Of a DNA stretch of 64,000 bases, positions 219-62,050 are shown in pieces. The notes below the pieces were generated by a model. It saw only the letters and a program-made list of their open reading frames with translations. It ran no database searches and had not been told where the DNA came from. The position numbers were made by a program, and so were the translations under genes. Numbering within the stretch: the stretch's first letter is position 1; every line of letters starts with the position of its first letter. Source of the DNA: Fistulifera solaris (Eukaryota); the NCBI GenBank assembly GCA_030295235.1, contig AP026162.1, positions 1,984,001-2,048,000 on the forward strand, read 5' to 3'.

Positions 219-1500
219 AATTTACTATGACACGGGGTGTTGGTTTACGCCTGCCAAGACTGGAATGTACAGTAGTCATGAACTGAACAACAAAGGAATA
301 TGTTTTGCGTCTCTCGCATCCGTCCATTGTCATTCAACTGCAATTATAATCATAATTACGCGGGTAAATAAAGCTGCAACAATGATGACTCTGAACTACT
401 TGTTAAGCGTTTCTATTATTTTCAAGTCGAAAATCCGAGGATCAATGCCTAGAATTTCCACTATGAACCGGAGTGTTGGTTTACGCCTGCCAAGACTGTG
501 TTGTACAGTAGTCACGAATCATGAACCGAACAACAAAGGATTATGTTTTGCGTCTCTCGCATCCGTCCATTGTCATTCAACTGCAAATATAATCATAATT
601 ACGGGTAAATAAAGTCGCAACAATGATGATTCTGAACTACTCACTCGTCTACGATTTTCTTTTCTTTTCACGTCTATAATCCGAGGATCGATGAATTAAT
701 TTTCCACTATGCAACGGCGTGTTGGTTTACGCCTGCCAAGACTGTGTTGTACAGTAGTCACGAATCATGAACCGAACAACAAAGGATTATGTTTTGCGTC
801 TCTCGCATCCGTCCATTGTCATTCAACTGCAAATATAATCATAATTACGGGTAAATAAAGTCGCAACAATGATGATTCTGAACTACTCACTCGTCTACGA
901 TTTTCTTTTCTTTTCACGTCTATAATCCGAGGATCGATGAATTAATTTTCCACTATGCAACGGCGTGTTGGTTTACGCCTGCCAAGACTGTGTTGTACAG
1001 TAGTCACGAATCATGAACCGAACAACAAAGGATTATGTTTTGCGTCTCTCGCATCCGTCCATTGTCATTCAACTGCAAATATAATCATAATTACGGGTAA
1101 ATAAAGTCGCAACAATGATGATTCTGAACTACTCACTCGTCTACGATTTTCTTTTCTTTTCACGTCTATAATCCGAGGATCAATGCCTCGAATTTCCACT
1201 ATGCAACGGCGTGTTGGTTTACGCCTGCCAAGACTGTGTTGTACAGTAGTCACGAATCATGAACCGAACAACAAAGGATTATGTTTTGCGTCTCTCGCAT
1301 CCGTCCATTGTCATTCAACTGCAAATATAATCATAATTACGGGTAAGTAAAGTCGCAACAATGATGATTCTGAACTACTTGTCTACGATTTTCTTTTCTT
1401 TTCACGTCTATAATCCGAGGATCGATGAATTAATTTTCCACTATGCAACGGCGTGTTGGTTTACGTCAGCCAAGACTGGATTGTACAGTAGTCATGAATC
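219..1500 (+). repeat. Tandem array 1, ~246-bp unit, 5 units plus a terminal core
   Basis: GTGTTGGTTTACG recurs at 237, 473, 719, 965, 1211 and 1453 (spacing 236, 246, 246, 246, 242). Central units are near-identical and terminal units more diverged. Confidence 0.97.
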
Positions 1501-2430
1501 ACAATTGTTTCACTTGTCGTGACGCTTGGTGACGATGCCTTTCACAAAAACAAAACGTCGCCTTTGACATAACAACAAAGCAATGTCGAGTTCATTACCA
1601 TCTTTGGCTCCTCTTACTATACTAAATGAAATCAATAAACAGGTGTTTCTGCTTCGTTTTCTCTTTAACAGCGGCTAAAGCAACAATCAACCGTCAAACA
1701 TCTTTGAAGCAGACGGAAATTCTGTATATACGTTGGAGCCTAGTTGACACAAACGCTTGCATAGATAACTGAGAAATGTGTGATGGCACGGAGAAGAAGA
1801 GAATCAGAAGCGTTGAAACCGAAGCCATGCACGGCTTATCGAAATCCGGCACCCCGGCCGGAGGCTGGCCGTCTTCTACAACTGTCCTGCATCAGAAGGT
1901 CGAGCATGTAGTTTCTCCGCGTACGCAAAAATGTGGGCATGTTATGTTTTCACCTCCACAGAGATTCAGGGTATTGGAATTGGAACCGATGGCTGATACC
2001 GTCTGCGTCATTTGTTGTTACTTTGCACTTTGCACTCACAGAAAATCTGAGGTCATTTTTCCAACGGCACTTAATTGCAGTCATGGTACGACATTTACGA
2101 TTTTTGGTGGCGGTTGAATTACTCTCTCCGCCCAAGAGTACATGCACCAACCCGCGGAGTGCACGCTCAAAAACACGGAGGGAGCAAAAAGGACGAAAAA
2201 GCCACGACGAAACGGACGCAAAGCTGTGATGACCGCAAGCTCACTGTTAAAGACAATAAAATTGGTCAATCAACAAGATCAGTCTTCCTTTCTTCTCTAG
2301 AGTAGCCTATTCTCATAGTGCGATTGCATACGCTTCGATAGGGAAACAGCGGAGCAAACCGAAGAGTTGCTTGGAGACTTTGCAATAGATCCTCTTTCTT
2401 TTCAGTTTCGAAGAATCATCGCCGTGCAAG

Positions 2431-7699: not shown

Positions 7700-9466
7700 T
7701 TACATTATAATTGACGCTTGTTTGCTTTCAAAACGTGAAATAGCGTAAAGATATATTGCTTCGAATGTCTACGTGATTTCACGTAGGCCTATCGTAGGGA
7801 AACTTATCGACAGAGGGGAACCCGGATATCATTCAGTTCGAACAAACCATTCCTTCGCGATCTACCGTTTCCCTTCTGAGCGTACCAGATACGTCGTACA
7901 ACTGATCCTCGTGTTAGACAAGCATAGTAGAGAAAGTAATACTATAAAGGACAAGTTTCAAAAAAAAAATTTTTTGTTGCCGTTTGGTCCCCTTGTCAAT
8001 ATTTCACTTCTACCAACACCTCTCATGAATTTTATGACATTACAATTGACGATTGTTAGATTTCAAAACGTGAAATAGCGTAAAGACTCAATGCTTCGAA
8101 TGTCTACGTGATTTCACTTAGGCCTCGTAAGGAAATTTATCGACAGAGGGGGAACCCGGATATCATACAGTTCGAACAAACCATTCTGTGTGGCCGTTTA
8201 GGTCCCCTTGTCAATATTTCACTTCTACCAACACCTCTCATGAATTGTATTACATTAGGTCTACATGGGACGTTTGTTGGATTCAAAACGAGACGAAGAA
8301 CATAAACTCAATGCTTCGAAAGTCTACGTGATTTCACGTAGGCCTCGTGAGGAAATTTATCGACAGAGGGGGAACCCGGATATCATACAGTTCGAGCAAA
8401 CCATTTTGTGTGGCCGTTTAGGTCCCCTTGTCAATATTTCACTTCTACCAACACCTCTCATGAATTGTATTACATTAGGTCTACATGGGACGTTTGTTGG
8501 ATTCAAAACGAGACGAAGAACATAAACTCAATGCTTCGAAAGTCTACGTGATTTCACGTAGGCCTCGTGAGGAAATTTATCGACAGAGGGGGAACCCGGA
8601 TATCATACAGTTCGAGCAAACCATTTTGTGTGGCCGTTTAGGTCCCCTTGTCAATATTTCACTTCTACCAACACCTCTCATGAATTTTATGACATTACAA
8701 TTGACGATTGTTAGATTTCAAAACGTGAAATAGCGTCAAGACTCAATGCTTCGAATGTCTACGTGATTTCACTTAGGCCTCGTAAGGAAATTTATCGACA
8801 GAGGGGGAACCCGGATATCATACAGTTCGAGCAAACCATTTTGTGTGGCCGTTTTGGTCCCCTTGTCAATATTTCACTTCTACCAACACCTCTCATGAAT
8901 TGTATTACATTAGGTCTACATGGGACGTTTGTTGGATTCAAAACGAGACGAAGAACATAAACTCAATGCTTCGAAAGTCTACGTGATTTCACGTAGGCCT
9001 CGTAGGGAAATTTATCGACAGAGGGGGAACCCGGATATCATACAGTTCGAACAAACCATTTTGTGTCGCCGTTTAGGTCCCCTTGTCAATATTTCACTTC
9101 TACCAACACCTCTCATGAATTTTATGACATTACAATTGACGATTGTTAGATTTCAAAACGTGAAATAGCGTAAAGACTCAATGCTTCGAATGTCTACGTG
9201 ATTTCACTTAGGCCTCGTAAGGAAATTTATCGACAGAGGGGGAACCCGGATTTCATACAGTTCGAACAAACCATTCTGTGTGGCCGTTTAGGTCCCCTTG
9301 TCAATATTTCACTTCTACCAACACCTCTCATGAATTTTATGACATTACAATTGACGATTGTTAGATTTCAAAACGTGAAATAGCGTAAAGACTCAATGCT
9401 TCGAAAGTCTACGTGATATCACGTAGGCGTCGTAGGGAAATTTATCGACAGAGGGGGACCCCGGAT
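7700..9466 (+). repeat. Tandem array 2, 215/220-bp units of two variants, 8 cores
   Basis: Core TCGAAWGTCTACGTGATTTCACKTAGG at 7761, 8096, 8316, 8536, 8751, 8971, 9186 and 9401, containing the palindrome CTACGTGA-TT-TCACGTAG. Confidence 0.97.
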
Positions 9467-39379: not shown

Positions 39380-39510
39380 AATGGCGCCTCTTTGAACAAT
39401 GGTCAATATAATGCTAAACAACACTCCTCCGTTTTACGTCTTTGAAACTTTGTTTTGAAAAGCTTTCGGATCGAATGAATGAAGAAAAGATCTCCGTTTG
39501 ACGTTATAAT

Positions 39511-40454
39511 CACTATAGGCTCAATGTGTTGGTTTACGGAGACCGCGACTGAATTTCAGTCACGCTCCAATTACGGAAAACGAATAGAACGGTGACGAGG
39601 AGGGCCACAAATGACAGTGCAAAGTGTTGAATCAATATTTTGATACTTTTATGAGTGTAAAGGTATATTACGGTCTTCATTTGAAACGCAGCATTTCGCC
39701 TTGAAAAGCTTCCGGTGCGTCGACCGCTAATTTCACTATAGGCTCAATGTGTTGGTTTACGGAGACCGCGACTGAATTTCAGTCACGCTCCAATTACGGA
39801 AAACGAATAGAACGGTGACGAGGAGGGCCACAAATGACAGTGCAAAGTGTTGAATCAATATTTTGATACTTTTATGAGTGTAAGCTATATTACGGTCTTC
39901 ATTTGAAACGCAGCATTTCGCCTTGAAAAGCTTCCGGTGCGTCGACCGCTAATTTCACTATAGGCTCAATGTGTTGGTTTACGGAGACCGCGACTGAATT
40001 TCAGTCACGTTCCAATTACGGAAAACGAATAGAACGGTGACGAGGAGGGCCACAAATGACAGTGCAAAGTGTTGAATCAATATTTTGATACTTTTATGAG
40101 TGTAAGCTATATTACGGTCTTCATTTGAAACGCAGCATTTCGCCTTGAAAAGCTTCCGGTGCGTCGACCGCTAATTTCACTATAGGCTCAATGTATTGGT
40201 TTACGGAGACCGCGACTGAATTTCACTCACGCTCCAATTACGGAAAACGAATAGAACGGTGACGAGGAGGGCCACAAATGACAGTGCAAAGTGTTGAATC
40301 AATATTTTGATACTTTTATGAGTGTAAGCTGTATTACGGTCTTCATTTGAAACGCAGAATTTCGCCTTGAAAAGCTTCCGGTGCGTCGACCGCTAATTTC
40401 ACTATAGGCTCAATGTGTTGGTTTACGGAGACCGCGACTGAATTTCACTCACGC
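39511..40454 (+). repeat. Tandem array 3, 222-bp unit, 4 units plus a terminal core
   Basis: CACTATAGGCTCAATGTRTTGGTTTACGGAGACCGCGACTGAATTTCA at 39511, 39734, 39956, 40178 and 40400, with the palindrome GACTGAA-T-TTCAGTC. Confidence 0.97.
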
Positions 40455-40714
40455 ACCAAGATGCATAAATTATACACTTTACTACATCGCCGTACCGGCA
40501 ATGATGTATTCTAGAGTATAAAGTAGGAATGAGTACCGGGGTACAAAGCCGTTAAACTACTTAAGAGTACAGTGTACCCTGCCTTACGCGTCTGCTTGCG
40601 GCGACAATTTTTTGCGATGTGCGACTGTGCGATCAAATGCGTTTGACCATGACCTTTTGTTGAAAAGCGGTCGATCTTTGCCATTCCTACCAGGTATTTC
40701 TTTTCTCTAGCACG

Positions 40715-52171: not shown

Positions 52172-53923
52172 TTATTCCTGTGACTCCACAAATTCACAAT
52201 ACATCCACGCCAAATGGCCCCAGTGACGCGGATCGGTTAGCGTGGCAGGAACAGGGAGACGAAACACGGGGAACAACGAGTGGTTTGCGGGCCATTGTTC
52301 TGAGGTTTCATCCTTGGTTTCGAACGGGAAAACTCTATCCGAGTCAAGGTTTAAAACCTTGCTTGGATCACGTGCCGGTCCTTGGCTGAAGTATTGGTCA
52401 AGATCCAACCCACAATAAGAGGTCACAACAACAATCGTATTCGCATAGTTTTCTACCAATGCCTTCTCTCGCCCGAAGGAGTTACAAAAAGTTTTACTGT
52501 ACGACATAAGCAAGAACGAGCTACAAAGCATTTTCCAGTCATAGGGTGTCAAGTCTTCCCAATTCGGCGGTGACATGTCAGAAAAATCCACTCCCGCATC
52601 CATATCTTCGCTCCTTGGCGCATGCTCGAAAATGTAAAGCAAAGGGTAGCGAACTAGCTTGCGCATGCGCGCGAGCGCTTTTTCCTGATCCTCTTGTAAA
52701 TTTGCCTTTTGAGCCACGGCACAGAAGATTTTTAGCTCGTTCATGGCTTCCGCTAGGACGCTCACAGAAGTAGGACAGTTGCTCGAGTTTCTCGTAATTG
52801 GACCAAAAGTTATCACAAAATCTAGCCGATGCCATCCCCAGAATCTCCGAGTTTTCATAGATGGACGTGAACTGGTTCGCCAAGCCTCGTTGGGGCGATA
52901 GATGCTTGAGCGCCACAGAGAGTTGATCCTTGATAGTCGCCATCTGGTCTTGTTCGTTCCCAATCGCGTACCTTAAAGCACCTAGAAACTTGTCAAAGTT
53001 GGTCGCCTCGAGCCGCTCTTTGTACTGCGCATCCTCACTGACTACACGGTGTACCGCTTCGTAGCGCTCATCCTGGTTGAGCGTCTTCAACTTGAATTTA
53101 CCCACTTCTTCGCGCCCAATCATTTCAATAAGATCCTTATCAAACTTCTTGAATTGATCGAGGTTCATGAGAGAAGCCGTCCGGTAAAAGTATGCATGCA
53201 TAGCTGAAGTCGGAATCAAAACAGGAGGAAACTTCCCGCTGCTGCGGCTTCTCTTGGTAGGAGACGGTTGCAGCATTTCTTCCAGTACTCTCAAGTTGTT
53301 TCGGAGGGAGAACAAGCGCCCCAACTCTTTGCGGGATTCTTCCACCAATACTGACTGTTCACTATCGTCCGGATCGTCCACTTTATTAAGAAGAATGATG
53401 AGAGGAATTTCCCTGCGTTCTCTTGATTCTCCTTGACAAACTGCAGCATCTTGATTTGTTCCTCCGTGTTGACGCCTTGTTTTCCATCCATTACCAAGAC
53501 CACGACGTCAAAGGTATGCCACTTTTGTGCGACAAAGTTTCGGTATTTACTACCTGCACCGGCTTCATTGATTCCCGGAATATCAACCATTACGAGATTG
53601 GCATCGTCTCGCATTGTACACAAGGGTTCGTCGAGTTCAATCTCAAAGACTTTTTCGTGAATTTCGTTCGAGTTGCGAAAGTTCTGATTGTCGGCCGTAA
53701 TCTCCGTGAGCACCGTATCGGCTGATTGTGTGCCTCGAGTCAGTAAAACGCTGTTTTCGTCGTTCGCTGCGTCTTGATTTGGAAGGAGACGAAAGTAGTT
53801 GATACCAGCGGTCGTTCGTTTCATGGATACTTCGCCGTACTTGTCGCGAAACAAAGCATTCAACACTGTTGTCTTCCCGACGGAGACATGCCCTACAATG
53901 GCGATATTGATATCCGTCATCAT
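52172..53923 (-). CDS. Dynamin-like P-loop GTPase (Dynamin_N/Era-like), no intron evident
   Basis: G1 GHVSVGKTT, G2 RTT, G3 DIPG and G4 NKVD (after a frameshift at ~53415), followed by a helical C-terminal region. A second frameshift lies at ~52775. Confidence 0.82.
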
Positions 53924-55160
53924 TGTGAGTATTTAGTTCTTATTATTTGATGATGTGATAGACACTTTAGCCTCAAAAGCGCAACAGATGCGGTGCTGTC
54001 GATAAAACGCAAAAAGATCGCGTCAATCCTCCCTTTTTCTCGTCTTTCCCAGCGCCATAGTAAAAATCGAGCTTTCAAAAGATACTTAAAGAGGTATGTA
54101 CCGAACATAGCCAGTCCGATATTTTATCAATTTTTACTATGTGGGTAACGGAACATGGAAGATGAGCACTCATTTTTTCGTTTTTATCCGTCGTCTATCG
54201 ACCATGGCATTGTTATCCATCACAAAAAAGGTCTGCCTATTACTATGTCATTGTCCAAGGTACGTTGATACTTGGAAAGTGAATAAATTAAGCCGCGGAC
54301 CGCTTACTCATCGATTGATTGCACAAAATTCACAACAATCATCTGGCCAAACGAAGAACGCGAACGGACTAGTTAGGAACATGTTACCGGTACTTTGCTG
54401 ACAGGCTTTTCCGATGCCGAAAGATGATGAATATGTCCTTTGGCACGATCATTCCACCTCCTTGTGAGCTGTTTCAACTTGATGAATATATGATATGTTA
54501 GTCGGAAAGATGATGACATACACATCGAAAACATCTGCAAATCCATTTGGAAGAAAAATGGAAATGAAGACGTTCTGTTTCATAAATTTCACCGTCTCGC
54601 AGCTGTAGTGCAACTATCATTGTCTTTGAATGAAAGGTCTTCACGAACCAAACGGTAAAAGAGATCTGGGTTGACTCGTGCGACACGCATCGCACTTCTT
54701 AGATTGTCGTCCATTAATTCGAAAGTGTTCTTACTTTGTTTGCTTTTCAAAGCCTGCTGAATAGGAACTGGAATCATTGCAAAAGACAACAACTGCCATG
54801 GCCCTTATGATAATAATTATTCGCTAGGTATAGCTCGTATATAATTCAGTTGGTCATACTCCTTAATATCATAAAGAAGTTTGTCGGGCTATCCTCTGGA
54901 ATTTCTCAGAATTTTCGGTCTTGACATTGGCTCTATACCTACATCTACTCTTAGCGGCTTTCTTCAGCTATCTTTGTTATTAGTATCATTTTATCTCGGC
55001 CTAAGGCCTCACTCAAACACTCTGTGCTTTTTAAAGATAGCTCTCGTTGCTTCACAGCGACAAACACTCAAAACACCCATGTCACTGACAGAAGGGTGCT
55101 GATTTCATTGTCAAGTTCCGTGTCAGTTGACCCGGTCATTGCAAACAGTTAGTTGTGCTT

Positions 55161-58100
55161 TCAAGACTTTGCACGAGAGGAGCCACGTGGAGGAGCTTTT
55201 GCTGGGATAGGTGCACACTTACGGTCGTCTGAGTAGTCGCTGTTCTCGAGATGAAGAGGATCTAACTCTTGTTCGGTTGCTCGTTCGTCCTCGGCTTCAT
55301 AAGTGACAGTATTATTTAAAACTTCATCCACTGCAGTAGAAGGGGGAGGCGTAGGGAGCAGCCTTTCGCTGCAACGGATCTGCATCGTCTAGCTGCGATG
55401 TCGGAAGAGGAAGAAGCTTGCCATCCTGGATCATGCCTTGAACTACCTCCAGCTCAAACTCCGAGTCCGTTCGAGAATCCTTTAAGGATCTGTACTTGTC
55501 TTTCAGGAGTTGATATCTGTCGATTATATTCTTTGCTTGTGCTAGCGCAACTGATTTCCGAAGATAGTCTTCTCGGTGGTGCTCTACATCAGGTAACATT
55601 GCACATTCCTCTGCTGTATAACGTCCTTTAAACCCCGTCACCTTCAACTTGGCACAGAGCAGGTTCAACCTTTTACGCTGACACATAAACAGAAGTTTTT
55701 CTTTCTCTACTCCCCCCTTCTTCTTGGACGTCACTGGCTTGGATTGTTTTGCTAACGTAGCAGGAGGTCTGCCCTGAACTACTTCCGTTTCCAGTTCCTT
55801 TCGAGCAACTTCCTGAGCTTCCCCCTTCAGTTCATGTAGAATGCTAAACTTTGCTTCGAGACACTGAAACTTTTTAATGACATCCTCGACTTCTGCGGGG
55901 ACGCTTTTCGGCGCAGATAGTCTTCTCCATGGTGCACCAAACCAGGTAATAATGCACATTCCTCTTCTGTATAGCTTCCTTTGAAACGCTCCCGACCCAG
56001 TTTGTCACAAAGCTTGTTCAGCCGCTTACAGCTGACCAACAAGCGAATTTTGTTCAACTTTTTCTTTAGCTTGAGTTCCATCCTTGCGGTACTTGTCTGT
56101 GCTACGTTTATTATTCGCACTTTCCAGGGAAGAGAGCGACGGCTAGATTTTCAAAAGAATTGTTTGTCCGGTCTCGGTCGATGTGATCCACAATCTCACA
56201 GTCCGTCAACAATTCGCCGGTATAAGCCTCAACTGCCACTCGATAAAAGATGTATATTTTTCCACCAATCGTCACGGTCACTTTGACAACCGGGACGTGT
56301 GACTTGTGCTTCTTCTTGTAAGTTACGATTGTAATATCGTGAGAAACATTTGGTACGCTTATCACAGACAAGGGTTCCTTTGGCGTTGAACATAATCGGG
56401 AGATCTGGATCGGGATAGTCAAACCAGATTTCGTCAGGGTCACATTCAGATAAAGTCTTGTACTTGCTTTTCAAAATTACCGTGGACTCTCGGCGGCCAA
56501 GATCATTTCTGAAAATTGAAAAGAAGTTGTTTGAGTTAATCATCAACCGTTGTAAGAACTAAAGTATTTGTTTACTCACCCCGGTACGCAATTCTTCAAC
56601 TGCAAGTTTTCGCTCTGTGTCAGCCATTCCAGGTCGTCCACGTTATTGTCCCACTGCATAGATTTGTGGTGGATGACATGGGTCAAACTAGGCCGAGGAC
56701 CAATAAAAATGGCTGCAAGTGCCCCCCGAGGGAAAAGCTTGACTCTCGTCCCACTACAGTCTTCGCCGACAAAGTTGATCTGCCGATAGCCTTGTGCATC
56801 AGGGGTAGATATCATAAGCTTGAAGCTTACCACGCAATATCGTTTTACTCTTCGTGAGTTTCGATGAATTCGACGACCGATTATAATACCAATTCTACGG
56901 GTCGCGTGAACCGCGCGATTTCATCTTTCGATTTCTACGTACACGTAGAATCTACAGAACTCTGGTACAAAAAACATCGGTCGGCATTTTTACATCACGT
57001 CGTATCACGTCGTGGTGGCCCATTTTGTTGATAATAACGAAACCGTTTATGTAATCGAATAAATAAACAATTCAGTATGACTAAACTTAATAATGCTGAG
57101 AACGGGGGGTAAGCCGCAGCGCGCTTTTGTCCATGGTTCGGGCGCATTTTGTCATTTTGCTCACGACTGTGCGACGCCTCATTTTCACAGAAAACTCGAA
57201 ATGTCGAGCATTTAGCTCTAAATCGAAGCACTTTTACCACAGGTAGCATAATAAATGTAAGGTTTGTTACATGGGGCATCGAGCGGGCGTGGTACGCCTG
57301 GGATGGCGACATTATTCGCGAATATGGTGTTTTCTTGAGCCGGTCGTCGGTCGAATATGTCAATTATAATCATAATATGCCTTGATCGCCTCACCGCAAG
57401 CTCTTCTCAGTGCAATATGAGAGCTAACTATAGTAGGAACGGTATTTTATTTGGCGAAACAACAATCAACCCCAGTTTTATATCAATTATAAGGAAGGGG
57501 TCAAAACTTTCACTTCTGAAATCCGCTTGAATAAGTAGCGACACAGGATGGCCTAGGATGCTTCGAATTGCGGAGCATTTTCTCTTAATCGATATTGCTG
57601 ACTGTGTTTGAATTCGCATCTCAATGAGCATTTTTCAATGAGATTGAACGGCTGAACTTCCGTAGTTTGCTATGTTGGGTGGGGCGTTCAGTATCTTGTA
57701 TCGTCATCAAAGAACCATCAAACCCAATTTTAAGTGATATAATATTAAACTGCACATTAAAGTTATCACATAACTGTATTTTCGAAAGAGAACTGTGGCA
57801 AAAGAATTGACTTTGCGCTATTCATCGAATGGGACATGCCGAAAGTTGCTGGTAAACCAAAATGCGTATAACTGACAACTCAAGCGCTACCTCGATGCAC
57901 AAAGTCGCCGATCTTCTTCCCATCTTACTTGTCTTGTGTTGTGTATACTTTGTGCATCCAACCATCCATGAATAATAGAGATCTCACTACGGAATTCGGC
58001 CGACTTGCGATACAATGGGAAGATTTTCGTCTCCCGCTCGGACGCGAAAACTGCGCACTGTGTCGAAACGCTCGAAGAGAAAAAAATTTGCAAGATTCCA

Positions 58101-59421
58101 TATTCCGTGTGACATTGATCCGGCACTAACAATTTTACGAAATACCGTGAAAGATGAAATGCACGGTTCACGCGACCCGTAAATTCCCTATTCGGCGATA
58201 GCTGTCGTCTTGGGCTTGAGCCAATCGCTGATGAAAAGCGATAAAGAAGCCATGCTTGCAGCCATAATAAACCACAGCGAGATTACCTTTCCCTCTCTTA
58301 TCGATCACAACATGCTTGCTTTTGTTCATATCACCGTGTATCCCACGAGTTGTATTTTCGGGAAAACAAACAAAACCATGATACTGTGCAACTTGCAGGC
58401 ATTGCTCAGCTGTCAGTTTTGTTCGCTTGGTAGCAAGAATAGCTTGAATGTTTCGTGGCAAACGCTTCAATTCCCCCTGATCGTAGCAAGGCCATCGCAA
58501 TGTCAGCCGAAGGTAATACTCTCCCCCTTCCATTTGAAAGCCGGTCCCTTCTATGTTGGATTCTTTTATCATAATCAAGAAGTCCACCATTTTCCAAAAA
58601 GGTGCACACTCCACAGGAATGTTATTGGACGCTGACACCTGTGGGCTGTAAGTCACCAGCCCCATCACCTTCAAATGATTCAGGATATGGGACAGAGGGG
58701 ACTGATGGGCATAAAGGAATCATCGTGATCTCGGTATCAAAGTCAGCGGTGACATCGCATACTGCAGCATCAGTGGCCTTTAGATCAGCATCATCCACGG
58801 AGGCAACGTCGCTCTCAGAAGATTGGGAATCAATACCCGTACGGCGATGATGCTCGGCAATTACTGCGGTCTCGGCTTCAACAACATTAGCGGCAGAGAC
58901 CGTGAACTTGGAGTCATACATTAAGCCATCGACGGCCTTGACGGCAGATTTATCATTGCACTCAACATCGGCATGGGAATCAAGATCCGAGACTTCGACT
59001 TCTGTACCTGAATCTCCCACGGATTTGAAATCGGAGCTCTCATATATGGAAATCACCGAAGAGTCATCGTCGGAGGTCTCGCAATCGTCGTCGGCAGTCC
59101 GGTAATCAGAATCATTCTCTGAGCCAACATCAGTGGCCTCGAATTCTGAATCATCCATCGATTCGTCATTGCTTACATCCAAAGCGACCTCTGGTACTTT
59201 TTCTGCAGGGAGAATGGTCGAGGATCGTTCTCGAGTAGGGGCGACAATTCACGTCCTTCAGCGGACACTTCCGTATCATTTCCAATCTCTTTCTTACAGA
59301 ACTCCTGGTGACTCGAAAATGATCTTCATGCTCGGGTTCTTTTGTAACACGGCAATTTTCCTTCGGAGCAGGTTTGGTTTTTAGACTCGCAATCGTCTGT
59401 CTTAGCAGTCACGGAACTCAT
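55161..59421 (-). pseudogene. Disrupted gene: acidic N-terminus, unknown domain, HNH, intron, NUMOD4-like/HNH, two copies of an unknown ~100-aa domain
   Basis: HNH motifs GYRQI..LAAIFIGPRP..VIHH..DNNVDDLEWLTQSEN and FYRVAVEAY..IVDHIDRDRTNNSFENL. In-frame GTGAGT..TTTTCAG intron 56579-56509. About 7 frameshifts and a TIR-element insertion. The 5' end is uncertain. Confidence 0.75.
56896..58181. mobile_element. Non-autonomous TIR DNA transposon (1286 bp)
   Basis: 33/34-bp TIRs: TACGGGTCGCGTGAACCG(C/T)GC(G)ATTTCATCTTTC at 56896-56929 and inverted at 58149-58181. Flanked by the direct repeat AATTC (56891-56895, 58182-58186). No transposase ORF seen inside. Confidence 0.88.
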
Positions 59422-62050
59422 GCTGATTCTTGACGTCTTGCAAGATCAATGATAACTTCTCAACAGCTTTCTGGTCAATTAGACAATACTGCATAGTCGT
59501 TAGAACATCAGTTAGTGCAAGGTAGGCGATTGATACGAGGGAACGCGATTCGTTCCGTCAGCATTGATCTGTCGCATTTGATTAGCCCCATCATAAAAAA
59601 AAACTCTTGACTAGTTCGCCGGACACCGGCGATCATCTGGAAACGTACCTAAATCTAGCCTGAAAAATCACGCTTTTTCTATGACAACAAGAATTAATGA
59701 ACAGACAGAATGCGTTTTCCATAAGGAAGTGACAACCTGGGATGGTTTTCAAACAAAAGTTTGGTGCCTCAAAGAAAGTTTGATGTTTGATTTCGGTCGA
59801 GTGCCGTGGGAGCGGTGTAACGGTTTTTTGCGCGCAATTCATCATAGTTCAAAATATCTTCAAAACCACTGCGACCTGAAATACAGAGGGCTCCCTGTGC
59901 GATGTTTACGTTTAGATTTGGCATCTCGTGCATTTCAATTGCTTGTTCAAGCTGTCTACTGGTTAGACGATCAATGAGCTGACATCAACCAAGCTCTCAA
60001 AGGAAAGATTACCATGGCAGACATAGACTGCAAGTATCCTTTTCGGTGACGACGGAGAGTGGTGAAGTGCGTTCGATGACGCCGGAAGAGATTAACGCAT
60101 TTGTTCGGCAACAACCGCCATGCGCACATAAGATCATCCTCAAAAGTCTTCATGAGGAAAAGTAAGCAAACCTCCTTTGTTGGTGTCATCGCCCTACATC
60201 CAAATGCAAGAATTCCATGAATGTCAACAGCAATCTCTACCTTTTCACTACTTTGTACCATCGAAACAATTATCGCTTGTTGTCGATATCACATTAACTA
60301 GGATCATGGTGTCCCAAATTACGTTTCGAGCTCAAGAGTTATGGTACCGCGCCGGCGAGAGCACGATTTCAAGCCAAATCCAGATGTCTTGTAAAGCTGC
60401 CACTGTCTCCTTTCAATTCGTAATGCCACCATCCAGCATCTAGTTACCAACAAGATGTTTACCCTTTCCTTAAACAGTCTTTGCCCATCCGACATGAGCC
60501 CCGTCTTCTCTTAAAAACGCTTCTCAGGGGATTGTTTGAGTGATACAGACACGGTAAGGCATACAATTCGACGAAGCCTTTTGAACAAGTTCTGAATTTC
60601 CCTTTCCTGCTAACATTTTTGGAATTCTCAAGCGGCATCAATTCTTGATTGTTTGTCCAATGATAGCGTCATTGACTATCAAGCTACGGACCCGCATTCG
60701 AATGGATCCAAAGAACATGGAATACGAGAGAAGTTCGTTCTAAGCAAGCTATCTTGACTCCCTCATTTTCGATCGCCATTGATGCCATTCCGCAAGTCGA
60801 ATTCACTTCCCCTTGATAATATCCAAAATTGCCGCGCATAGAACATTTTCATGTGTATGAAATGAAGGCGATGAATGATGAATGATGAAAAGAAGTGAAA
60901 ATGAAGTTCGGATCATATGCGGGGAAGGACGCGAGAGACGAGAGCGGCGGAGTTTCGTCGTCGAGCAGAGCGACACAGCGACGCGAGCGAGGAGTGTCGC
61001 AGTGTCGAGTGAGAAGTGGAAGTGAACCCAGGCGCCTGTCCGCTGTACGAGAAGAAGTTGGTTAACCTCACTCATAGCTCGTACCGGTACTCACATCTTG
61101 TCTTTTGTCTTTTCACAACCTTTCATTTTTTTTTGTTTATGAGTCATCTCGACCATGGCCTGTATATCGTGTATTTATCTGTTTTATCTTCTTTCTTCTT
61201 TCAAACAAGCGACAACTTATTAACTTTGCAATATTCTGGAAGTAATTGATCGAAGGTTTGTAGTCTAAAATTGATTTCCGCTGATCATATGAGAAACGTA
61301 ACGTAAGCTGAGTGTTCACGACGCAAGTCTTCGCAGCGAAAATGAACGTGGAGAAGCAAGCTAAAACTCAATTAAAGCATCATTTATTGGAAGATTTTAC
61401 TGACATTGATTGTGCCGAAAACGAGAGGTCTTTTCCTTTCATATATTACCGACATCCATTTCTACAAGACGGCCTCATCATCAGTTTTCTATGTCTTGCT
61501 CCACTTTTGCCTCAAAGGCAAAGATTATTGTTGATAGAAGTACTTCCTTTTGAGAAGTTTGCGGCATACCCGCTCCGCTTTCTCGTCCCGCTTGTACAGT
61601 AGTAGACTGGGCACGAACGACATGCTTCTCTCAAGACGAGCGACGATGCATCAATCAGTCAAACAAATTATCTCTAGTATTATCAGAGAGAAGAAATCCC
61701 ATTTTTACAACGCTGCTGAAACAGAATAATCCCGAGAAAGCTCACTAGAAAGGGTAGTACACGTAATTGTTTTAGTAATTGACGCATCATGCAACACGGG
61801 CTGAAACGTAAAACGTAGTGGCTTACTAGAGCTAAACATGTTTTTCTCTTTGAAAAAATCTGAAAAATAGGCTACCGTACCAGGTACCAGTGCTGTAGAC
61901 TAAAGACCCCCTTAGATAGGTCGATTTTTTGGTCGCATCCAAAGCCTCGACACCGAAAATTGAGTGAAGCAGAAACGATGACGTCAACAAAAATACTAAG
62001 CAGTTAGATACAAAAACAAACTTTTATTAATACCAAGGAACATAGCACAC

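What the first reader, a model, noticed from the sequence alone, without database searches (positions are those of the whole stretch)
55161..59421. Eukaryotised tandem NUMOD4/HNH nuclease gene, reconstructable across an intron and a transposon
Seen: removing 56896-58181 plus one AATTC joins ORF 58168-58674 (..SYRRIG) in frame to NWYYNRSSNSSKLTKSKTILRGKLQAYDIY. A one-base fix in CCCC then gives PDAQGYRQINF..LAAIFIGPRPSLTHVIHHKSMQWDNNVDDLEWLTQSEN (HNH 1). A 71-bp GT-AG intron splices in frame to NDLGRRE..DEIWFDYPDPDLPIMFNAKGTLV (NUMOD4-like) and then ..RVAVEAY..VDHIDRDRTNNSFENL (HNH 2). Established: NUMOD4-HNH is the I-HmuI-type homing endonuclease layout of phages and large DNA viruses. Inference: a roughly 900-aa nuclear gene with a spliceosomal intron and two nickase-type modules that could together cut both strands. 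It could belong to an undescribed selfish or defence element, with intact copies possibly elsewhere.
Basis: partly seen in the sequence, partly recalled or inferred. Interest (0 to 1): 0.75.

Follow-up and report, generated by a model that had tools for sequence, protein, structure and literature searches.

The report
Diatom tRNA-targeting selfish nuclease cassettes
This gene is an aged copy of a family of virus-type DNA-cutting genes in a diatom nucleus that all sit at transfer-RNA genes, and several of them have broken the host tRNA gene while bringing an altered replacement, which looks like a natural cut-and-rescue selfish element.

Summary
The gene is real: two HNH modules, a 71-bp intron at a conserved position, and a 1,286-bp TIR element with a 5-bp duplication. 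Most frameshifts are assembly errors, and a transposon-free allele exists.

The family is the main result. All 15 copies found by three searches lie within 3.8 kb of a tRNA gene (14 by ARAGORN/Rfam, one permuted tRNA found post hoc), against 0 of 20 control stretches. At five sites the other subgenome has an unbroken tRNA gene, while the occupied chromosome holds host tRNA pieces plus a cassette-side tRNA, recoded at the Gly and Pro sites. Related copies tend to sit at tRNAs for the same amino acid.

Best reading: homing cassettes that cut tRNA genes and restore them, like yeast WHO elements but with an HNH-HNH-AP2-like enzyme. The window copy is old: no AP2-like part, no tRNA scar, nearest tRNA-Gly 2.6 kb away. 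Cleavage and homing are untested.

The scan noted one such split locus in this genome and similar phage cassettes before; three earlier notes saw no link to the neighbouring tRNA.

The parts
58182..59421 (-). 5' part of the tandem-HNH gene: acidic low-complexity stretch, then the family's conserved N-terminal region. True start not fixed; no ubiquitin domain, unlike the C3 paralog.
   Evidence: tblastn with paralog exon 2, 42-58% identity; frame open from at least 59325 once bases absent from both read sets are dropped
56896..58181 (.). Non-coding DNA transposon, 18-bp TIR, 5-bp target duplication (56891-56895 and 58182-58186); superfamily not assigned; polymorphic
   Evidence: one contig of run X2 joins 56895 to 58206
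56580..56895 (-). Rest of the exon carrying HNH module 1 (motif about 56707-56603)
   Evidence: Pfam HNH_3 E 9.7e-4; PHROG E 4.5e-8; 54% identity to paralog
56509..56579 (-). 71-bp GT-AG intron, phase 2, position shared with paralogs
   Evidence: splicing inferred
55161..56508 (-). Last exon: HNH module 2 (about 56242-56138), AP2-like DNA-binding region missing, duplicated C-terminal repeat (55559-55676 / 55912-56029)
   Evidence: HNH_3 E 1.3e-8; P0151 is this exon in open frame; alignment; repeat D1
   Evidence: the sister copy sits in tRNA-Gly(GCC); shares all 6 cassette-specific bases; identical in the other subgenome
53649..60311 (.). Stretch missing from the homeologous contig C2, a deletion with microhomology that also removes the 5' end of the neighbouring dynamin-like GTPase gene, so C2 is not an empty site
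59927..60114 (.). 188-bp polymorphic insertion upstream of the gene (MITE-like)
   Evidence: 99% copy on C15; X2 contig joins 59926 to 60115

Best explanation
The gene is one copy of a family of free-standing nuclear homing cassettes that target tRNA genes. SHOWN: the protein layout (N-terminal region, HNH1, HNH2, AP2-like region in complete copies), the position of every copy found at a tRNA gene, filled/empty site pairs with split host tRNAs, and recoded cassette tRNAs. INFERRED: the enzyme binds a conserved tRNA-gene motif and nicks or cuts a sensitive allele; repair from the cassette-bearing chromosome copies in the nuclease gene with a complete or partial resistant tRNA gene; the old halves are pushed apart and decay; rare jumps go mostly to related tRNA genes. 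The window copy is an old insertion at tRNA-Gly(TCC) that has lost its AP2-like region, carries a transposon in some strains and probably no longer homes.
For: tRNA within 96-3,778 bp of 14 of 15 copies vs 0 of 20 control 10-kb stretches (Fisher 6e-9, 9e-8 with homeologous pairs collapsed); the 15th has a permuted tRNA-Ile about 1.3 kb away; a uniform T-arm scan gives 15 of 15 vs 1 of 20. Filled vs empty homeologs: Gly-GCC C3:1878k/C4:1836k and C3:1673k/C4:1792k, Leu-AAG C19/C20, Arg-TCT C24/C23, Pro-TGG C21/C22. The cassette tRNA-Gly(GCC) is identical at two loci and differs from the nearer host gene at 6 of 71 positions, one a compensated D-stem pair. Nearest relatives share the tRNA amino acid for 6 of 11 independent copies (permutation p 0.002; 4 of 10, p 0.027, without one C21 neighbour). 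9 of 13 homeologous tRNA pairs at cassette sites differ in the mature sequence vs 0 of 2 control pairs. Best solved-structure match is I-HmuI. Precedents: yeast WHO elements (PMC7282813), T4 SegB (PMC2330249).
Against: No cleavage, homing or expression data. At the window itself no orphan tRNA half beats shuffled controls; only 3 of 14 loci tested do (C19 was not in that test, its pieces are). The window's tRNA is identical in both subgenomes and 3.4 kb from the nearest HNH-matching stretch. Break points differ between sites (D-loop, anticodon region, T-loop) and all four gene/tRNA orientations occur. Copies are 27-82% identical, so there is no recent burst. 4 of 13 tRNA pairs show no recoding. 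HNH2 lacks the Asn96 equivalent in the window and C3 copies. Controls are few. An allodiploid with little meiosis would give little chance to home now (inference).
Confidence: 0.7

Rival explanations
1. Passive hitch-hiking: a resident HNH gene beside a tRNA gene was spread by ectopic recombination between tRNA genes; the nuclease plays no part in targeting.
For: Explains Gly-Gly, Leu-Leu and Pro-Pro pairing, duplicated tRNA pieces with flanks (C24, C21) and variable break points.
Against: Eight amino-acid classes of tRNA are occupied; 0 of 6 other tRNA genes checked have a copy nearby; the only gene seen in the 5.8-kb C3 cassette is a phage-type nuclease; cassette tRNAs are recoded but conserved.
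Confidence: 0.14
2. Insertion near tRNA genes by tethering to RNA polymerase III factors (Ty1/Ty3/TRE-like, recalled) or by a separate transposase or integrase acting in trans (Dada-like), with the HNH gene as cargo.
For: Copies lie on either side of the tRNA and in both orientations; about two thirds of sites show no split tRNA.
Against: Introns are kept; no LTR, poly(A), short target duplication or shared terminal repeat at the mapped junctions; no DDE transposase or recombinase among the cassette ORFs scanned (the one reverse transcriptase, in C19, lies in a separate high-copy element); the tree tracks tRNA identity.
Confidence: 0.08
3. Domesticated host genes (DNA-binding regulators or anti-virus nucleases) that arrived by homing long ago and are now kept for a host function.
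For: Spliceosomal introns, a ubiquitin domain in 2 copies, open frames in public alleles even of the AP2-less window copy, copies shared by both subgenomes.
Against: Presence/absence between subgenomes at 7 sites, truncated and deleted copies, transposon insertion in this copy. It does not explain the tRNA link, only later survival.
Confidence: 0.08

Closest known systems
WHO elements of Torulaspora and Lachancea yeasts (PMC7282813; abstract and passages read)
   Same: Nuclear, free-standing nuclease; homes into an essential gene without splicing; brings a resistant replacement part; leaves fragments of the old gene; speeds up the target's evolution; old copies decay.
   Different: WHO is a LAGLIDADG intein-like protein with a zinc finger and targets the aldolase gene FBA1. 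Here: tandem HNH plus AP2-like, spliceosomal introns, many different tRNA genes, often a whole replacement gene. WHO cleavage is shown; this is not.
Phage T4 SegB (PMC2330249 abstract; PMC2988022 passages)
   Same: Free-standing homing endonuclease that recognises a conserved tRNA motif and spreads with tRNA genes.
   Different: GIY-YIG enzyme in a phage tRNA cluster; the passages read describe no split host tRNA with a recoded rescue copy.
I-HmuI (PDB 1u3e) and HNH_3 / HNH-AP2 proteins of phages, giant viruses and polinton-like viruses (PMC12220804 passages)
   Same: Fold and motif of each module.
   Different: I-HmuI is a single-module intron-encoded nickase. Pfam NUMOD4 is not detected here; identity to viral proteins is 10-23% in the fold search and tblastn of phage records finds nothing.
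Fungal mitochondrial mobile ORFs that replace a gene's 3' end (Allomyces atp6, Glomus; PMC3630166 passages)
   Same: Endonuclease plus a foreign replacement piece, native piece displaced.
   Different: Organellar, LAGLIDADG or GIY-YIG, protein-gene targets.
Dada DNA transposons (PMC3706591; parts 1-2 of 4 read)
   Same: Eukaryotic nuclear DNA elements inserted inside tRNA genes, some in the A box.
   Different: DDE transposase, 6-7-bp target duplication, high-copy targets, no replacement tRNA in the parts read.

Membership tests
HNH_3 / I-HmuI-type nucleases | HNH_3 motif and beta-beta-alpha-metal fold | tested here: met
   model of GAX20255.1 (HNH2 region pLDDT mostly 82-98, HNH1 55-75) has 1u3e as top PDB match, prob 1.00, E 8.6e-3
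HNH_3 / I-HmuI-type nucleases | N-terminal NUMOD4 domain | tested here: inconclusive
   No Pfam NUMOD4 hit; the top viral fold match is annotated NUMOD4
HNH_3 / I-HmuI-type nucleases | Active-site D74, H75, N83, N96 equivalents (roles recalled) | tested here: inconclusive
   HNH1: H-H, N, N; HNH2: D-H, N, but Ser at the N96 column in window and C3 copies, Asn in GAX20255.1
HNH-AP2 endonucleases | AP2 domain after the HNH | tested here: inconclusive
   Below-cut-off AP2 hit in the C11 copy (E 3.5e-4) and distant relatives; three strands plus helix in the model; region absent from the window copy
WHO-like unorthodox homing elements | Filled and empty alleles at a conserved target gene | tested here: met
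   five sites with split or duplicated tRNA pieces; not testable for the window copy, whose homeolog is deleted
WHO-like unorthodox homing elements | Replacement copy of the target plus displaced old fragment | tested here: met
   Gly-GCC twice and Pro-TGG with recoded whole tRNA; Arg and Leu with partial duplicates; not seen at the window
WHO-like unorthodox homing elements | Allele-specific cleavage and biased inheritance | not testable with these tools
   needs biochemistry and crosses
WHO elements proper | LAGLIDADG intein-like plus zinc-finger protein targeting FBA1 | tested here: not met
   HNH protein, tRNA targets
Dada transposons | DDE transposase and 6-7-bp target duplication | tested here: not met
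   No DDE family; junctions show small losses or long duplications
Endogenous virus / polinton-like virus | Capsid, packaging ATPase, polymerase or integrase genes around the nuclease | tested here: not met
   Cassettes of 3.1-9.1 kb lie among host genes; none found among ORFs listed and scanned, which did not cover every ORF of every locus

The most novel reading that the evidence does not exclude
A still-active family of nuclear 'home-and-rescue' elements in diatoms: paired HNH nickases cut single-copy tRNA genes, cassettes occupy roughly a fifth of the tRNA loci, and the arms race drives both the rapid compensatory recoding of tRNA genes and unusual tRNA architectures (a circularly permuted tRNA-Ile, a 71-nt GT-AG insert in a tRNA-Leu D-loop) as ways to escape cutting.
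Probability: 0.3. Interest if true: 0.9.

Novelty: new variant of a known kind. Interest (0 to 1): 0.72.

Why it matters
Free-standing homing with a rescue allele is known in the nucleus from the yeast WHO elements. A second, unrelated case with a phage-type HNH enzyme and essential tRNA genes as targets would show that this strategy arose more than once in eukaryotes. It gives a testable cause for fast, compensated tRNA-gene change and perhaps for split or permuted tRNA genes. It also supplies matched sensitive/resistant substrate pairs for a family of site-specific nucleases. None of 10 full-text searches listed a description of it; most subscription papers and Repbase were not searchable.

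Tried and rejected
Association with the 220-bp arrays: 2 of 15 vs 3 of 20, rejected. Pseudogene by many frameshifts, my first reading: mostly assembly errors. C2 as the empty site of the window copy: it is a deletion cutting a host gene. Orphan tRNA halves near the window gene: none above shuffles. Expression: no RNA holder listed; all four runs laid were contigs, so no verdict on transcription or splicing. Word-index protein searches found nothing or only GAX20255.1, weak evidence. Metagenome scan: 8 weak loci (35-59% over about 30-70 residues), 1 of 8 with tRNA genes; not taken as family members. IMG/VR scan with P0151: none. Phage records: none. Atlas: generic HNH clusters at 0.89-0.90. ARAGORN at relaxed score gave noise and was not used for counts. 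A clear bulge-helix-bulge fold for the C19 D-loop insert was not found. Supplements of the papers were not read.
Full report
1. The observation. The window holds, on the minus strand, a gene with two HNH_3 segments, interrupted by a 1,286-bp element with 18-bp terminal inverted repeats and a 5-bp duplication. Two more long copies of that element lie on contig C1 at 79-80% identity, one with its own 5-bp duplication. The 71-bp GT-AG intron is at 56579-56509. The same position is an intron boundary in the paralog on C3 and in GenBank protein GAX20255.1, which matches the C19 copy of this genome at 100% over its first 315 residues. The genome is therefore Fistulifera solaris or extremely close to it, with paired homeologous contigs about 85-90% alike.

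2. The assembly has many one-base insertions. Contigs of two independent studies lack them: 23 gaps in a 4,380-bp contig and 21 in a 1,824-bp contig of run X1 (12 of 52 indel rows shown). Public protein P0151 is the last exon in one open frame. Dropping the bases that both runs lack brings FHRDWLKPKT into frame, matching the paralog; the frame after the transposon is IGIIIGRR...STPDAQGY. So NWYYNRSS... is off-frame and CCCC needs no fix. One contig of run X2 (depth 10.9, 54 letters on the short side, laid at 90% likeness) joins 56895 to 58206: a transposon-free allele exists. NUMOD4 is not detected by Pfam. The window copy lacks the roughly 110 residues after HNH2 that other copies have; these give a weak AP2 hit in one copy and fold as three strands and a helix. 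It also lacks the ubiquitin domain of the C3 copy.

3. The family. Three searches of the genome converge on 15 loci; the third added none. They are not exhaustive: a 16th, partial copy on C6 turned up later, and a remnant with no HNH left on C3. Copies are 27-82% identical to their nearest relatives. Outside this species only unnamed proteins at 42-50% identity (P0002, P0004) and short viral-type HNH or HNH-AP2 proteins near 30-38% were found. The model of GAX20255.1 has mean pLDDT 53.5, confident only over the HNH and AP2-like parts; its best PDB match is I-HmuI and its viral matches are HNH endonucleases.

4. Every copy sits at a tRNA gene. ARAGORN finds a tRNA in 13 of 15 neighbourhoods and Rfam finds the 14th, on C19; distances are 96-3,778 bp. 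Twenty 10-kb stretches taken at preset positions have none, nor do three transposon loci or window 1-52000. Neighbourhoods were 10-30 kb, but all distances fit within a 10-kb stretch centred on the gene. The 15th locus has a circularly permuted tRNA-Ile(TAT) about 1.3 kb away, found by eye afterwards (fold z -2.8). To offset that, one T-arm pattern was run on all: 15 of 15 neighbourhoods vs 1 of 20 controls. Six other tRNA genes have no copy within about 3.5 kb. The targets cover eight amino acids: Gly, Leu, Pro, Ser, Gln, Thr, Arg, Ile. The C11 tRNA is called Leu by ARAGORN and Pro in its homeolog; I label it Pro from its sequence.

5. Filled and empty sites. C3:1878k: the homeolog C4 has an unbroken tRNA-Gly(GCC); on C3 its first 18 and last 52 bases lie 5.8 kb apart, and between them are the nuclease gene and a complete, different tRNA-Gly(GCC). 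C3:1673k holds the same left junction and the same cassette tRNA with the gene deleted; its homeolog is empty. C21:289k: host tRNA-Pro(TGG) bases 1-36 and its last 22 bases flank a 5.7-kb insert with its own tRNA-Pro, recoded in both stems. C24: a 5' piece of tRNA-Arg lies 3.4 kb from the whole gene, the nuclease between, C23 empty. C19: host tRNA-Leu(AAG) 5' part, a 71-nt GT..AG insert holding a T-arm, a copy of the 3' part, the cassette, and the host 3' part 9 kb on; C20 empty. C11 has a 14-base 3' remnant seen by eye that does not pass the shuffle test. C3:205k is absent from C4 but shows no halves. The other sites, the window included, show no halves.

6. Signs of a resistance race. The cassette tRNA-Gly(GCC) is identical at its two loci while the surrounding cassette end is about 78% alike. 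It differs from the nearer host gene at 6 of 71 positions, and at all 6 it has the base of the window's tRNA-Gly(TCC). The window copy is also the sister of the C3 copy (bootstrap 92). Nearest neighbours share the amino acid for 6 of 11 independent copies (p 0.002; 4 of 10, p 0.027, with one of the two C21 neighbours left out; one copy of each homeologous pair and the Ile copy were left out). Of 13 homeologous tRNA pairs at cassette sites 9 differ in the mature sequence, often by compensated pairs; Thr, Arg, Leu-AAG and the window's Gly-TCC do not. Two control pairs are identical. [quoted passage not shown]

7. Mechanism. Most likely the complete protein binds a tRNA-gene motif, probably through the AP2-like part, and nicks or cuts a sensitive allele with one or both HNH modules. 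Repair from the occupied chromosome copies in the nuclease with a resistant tRNA. This is the logic shown for yeast WHO elements at FBA1 (PMC7282813, abstract and passages), and T4 SegB shows that a homing enzyme can read the tRNA T-loop motif (PMC2330249, abstract). All catalytic and homing steps here are inferred. Against it: varied break points and orientations, no recent burst, and no scar at the window. For the window copy the link to its tRNA rests on the family pattern, the tree and the shared bases.

8. Novelty. It works like a WHO element but is not one; it is not Dada and not a provirus (membership table). Ten searches of the held library listed no account of nuclear tRNA-targeted HNH cassettes or of permuted tRNAs in diatoms; a 2014 and a 2026 review, searched by passage, mention neither. 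HNH genes in phage tRNA clusters are in print (PMC6409571, passages). Unchecked notes of this scan describe HNH-plus-replacement-tRNA cassettes in phages and the C21 Pro split in this genome; three notes saw no link between a copy and its tRNA neighbour, which the genome-wide count contradicts. Verdict: new variant of a known kind, interest 0.72.

Noticed in passing
L064:3670-3790 minus (G000:C5 about 1467670-1467790); homeolog C6 about 1401300-1401430: Circularly permuted tRNA-Ile(TAT): 3' half, 8-9-nt linker, 5' half, with paired leader and trailer; the two homeologs differ by compensated stem changes. Missed by ARAGORN and Rfam; not seen for diatoms listing or passages.
   Followed up: partly
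L029:2140-2290 (G000:C19:582640-582790): tRNA-Leu(AAG) with a 71-nt GTAAG...CAG insert in the D-loop that holds a perfect T-arm; whether it is removed, and by which machinery, is unknown.
   Followed up: partly
L025:4719-6593 and L064:8438-9775: Two copies from different clades carry an upstream ubiquitin domain (Pfam E 3e-23 and 4e-17); in L025 it appears spliced to the HNH exons.
   Followed up: partly
L092:4621-4718 (G000:C1:2603621-2603718): 98-bp, 99% identical copy of the second-intron region of the C3 nuclease gene in unrelated sequence; suggests capture by another element or repair-linked copying.
   Followed up: no
G000:C4 about 852400-855750 vs C3 about 917650-921030: The cassette at tRNA-Gln is inverted between the two subgenomes; the C21:266k/C22 pair also shows an inversion.
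   Followed up: no
window 52172-53932 minus: Dynamin-like GTPase gene next to the cassette; its 5' end is deleted on C2 in this assembly, but a contig of run X2 suggests a second haplotype that keeps it.
   Followed up: partly
window 224-1501, 7969-9466, 39510-40459: Three different 220-246-bp tandem arrays; no Rfam family; related arrays occur in 3 of 20 control stretches.
   Followed up: partly
L090:7770-7864 and L091:1708-1802: SNORD14-like snoRNA, below gathering score, 2.6 kb from the second tRNA-Gly(GCC) locus.
   Followed up: no
whole window: High rate of one-base insertion errors in this assembly; frameshifts called from it should be checked against reads.
   Followed up: yes
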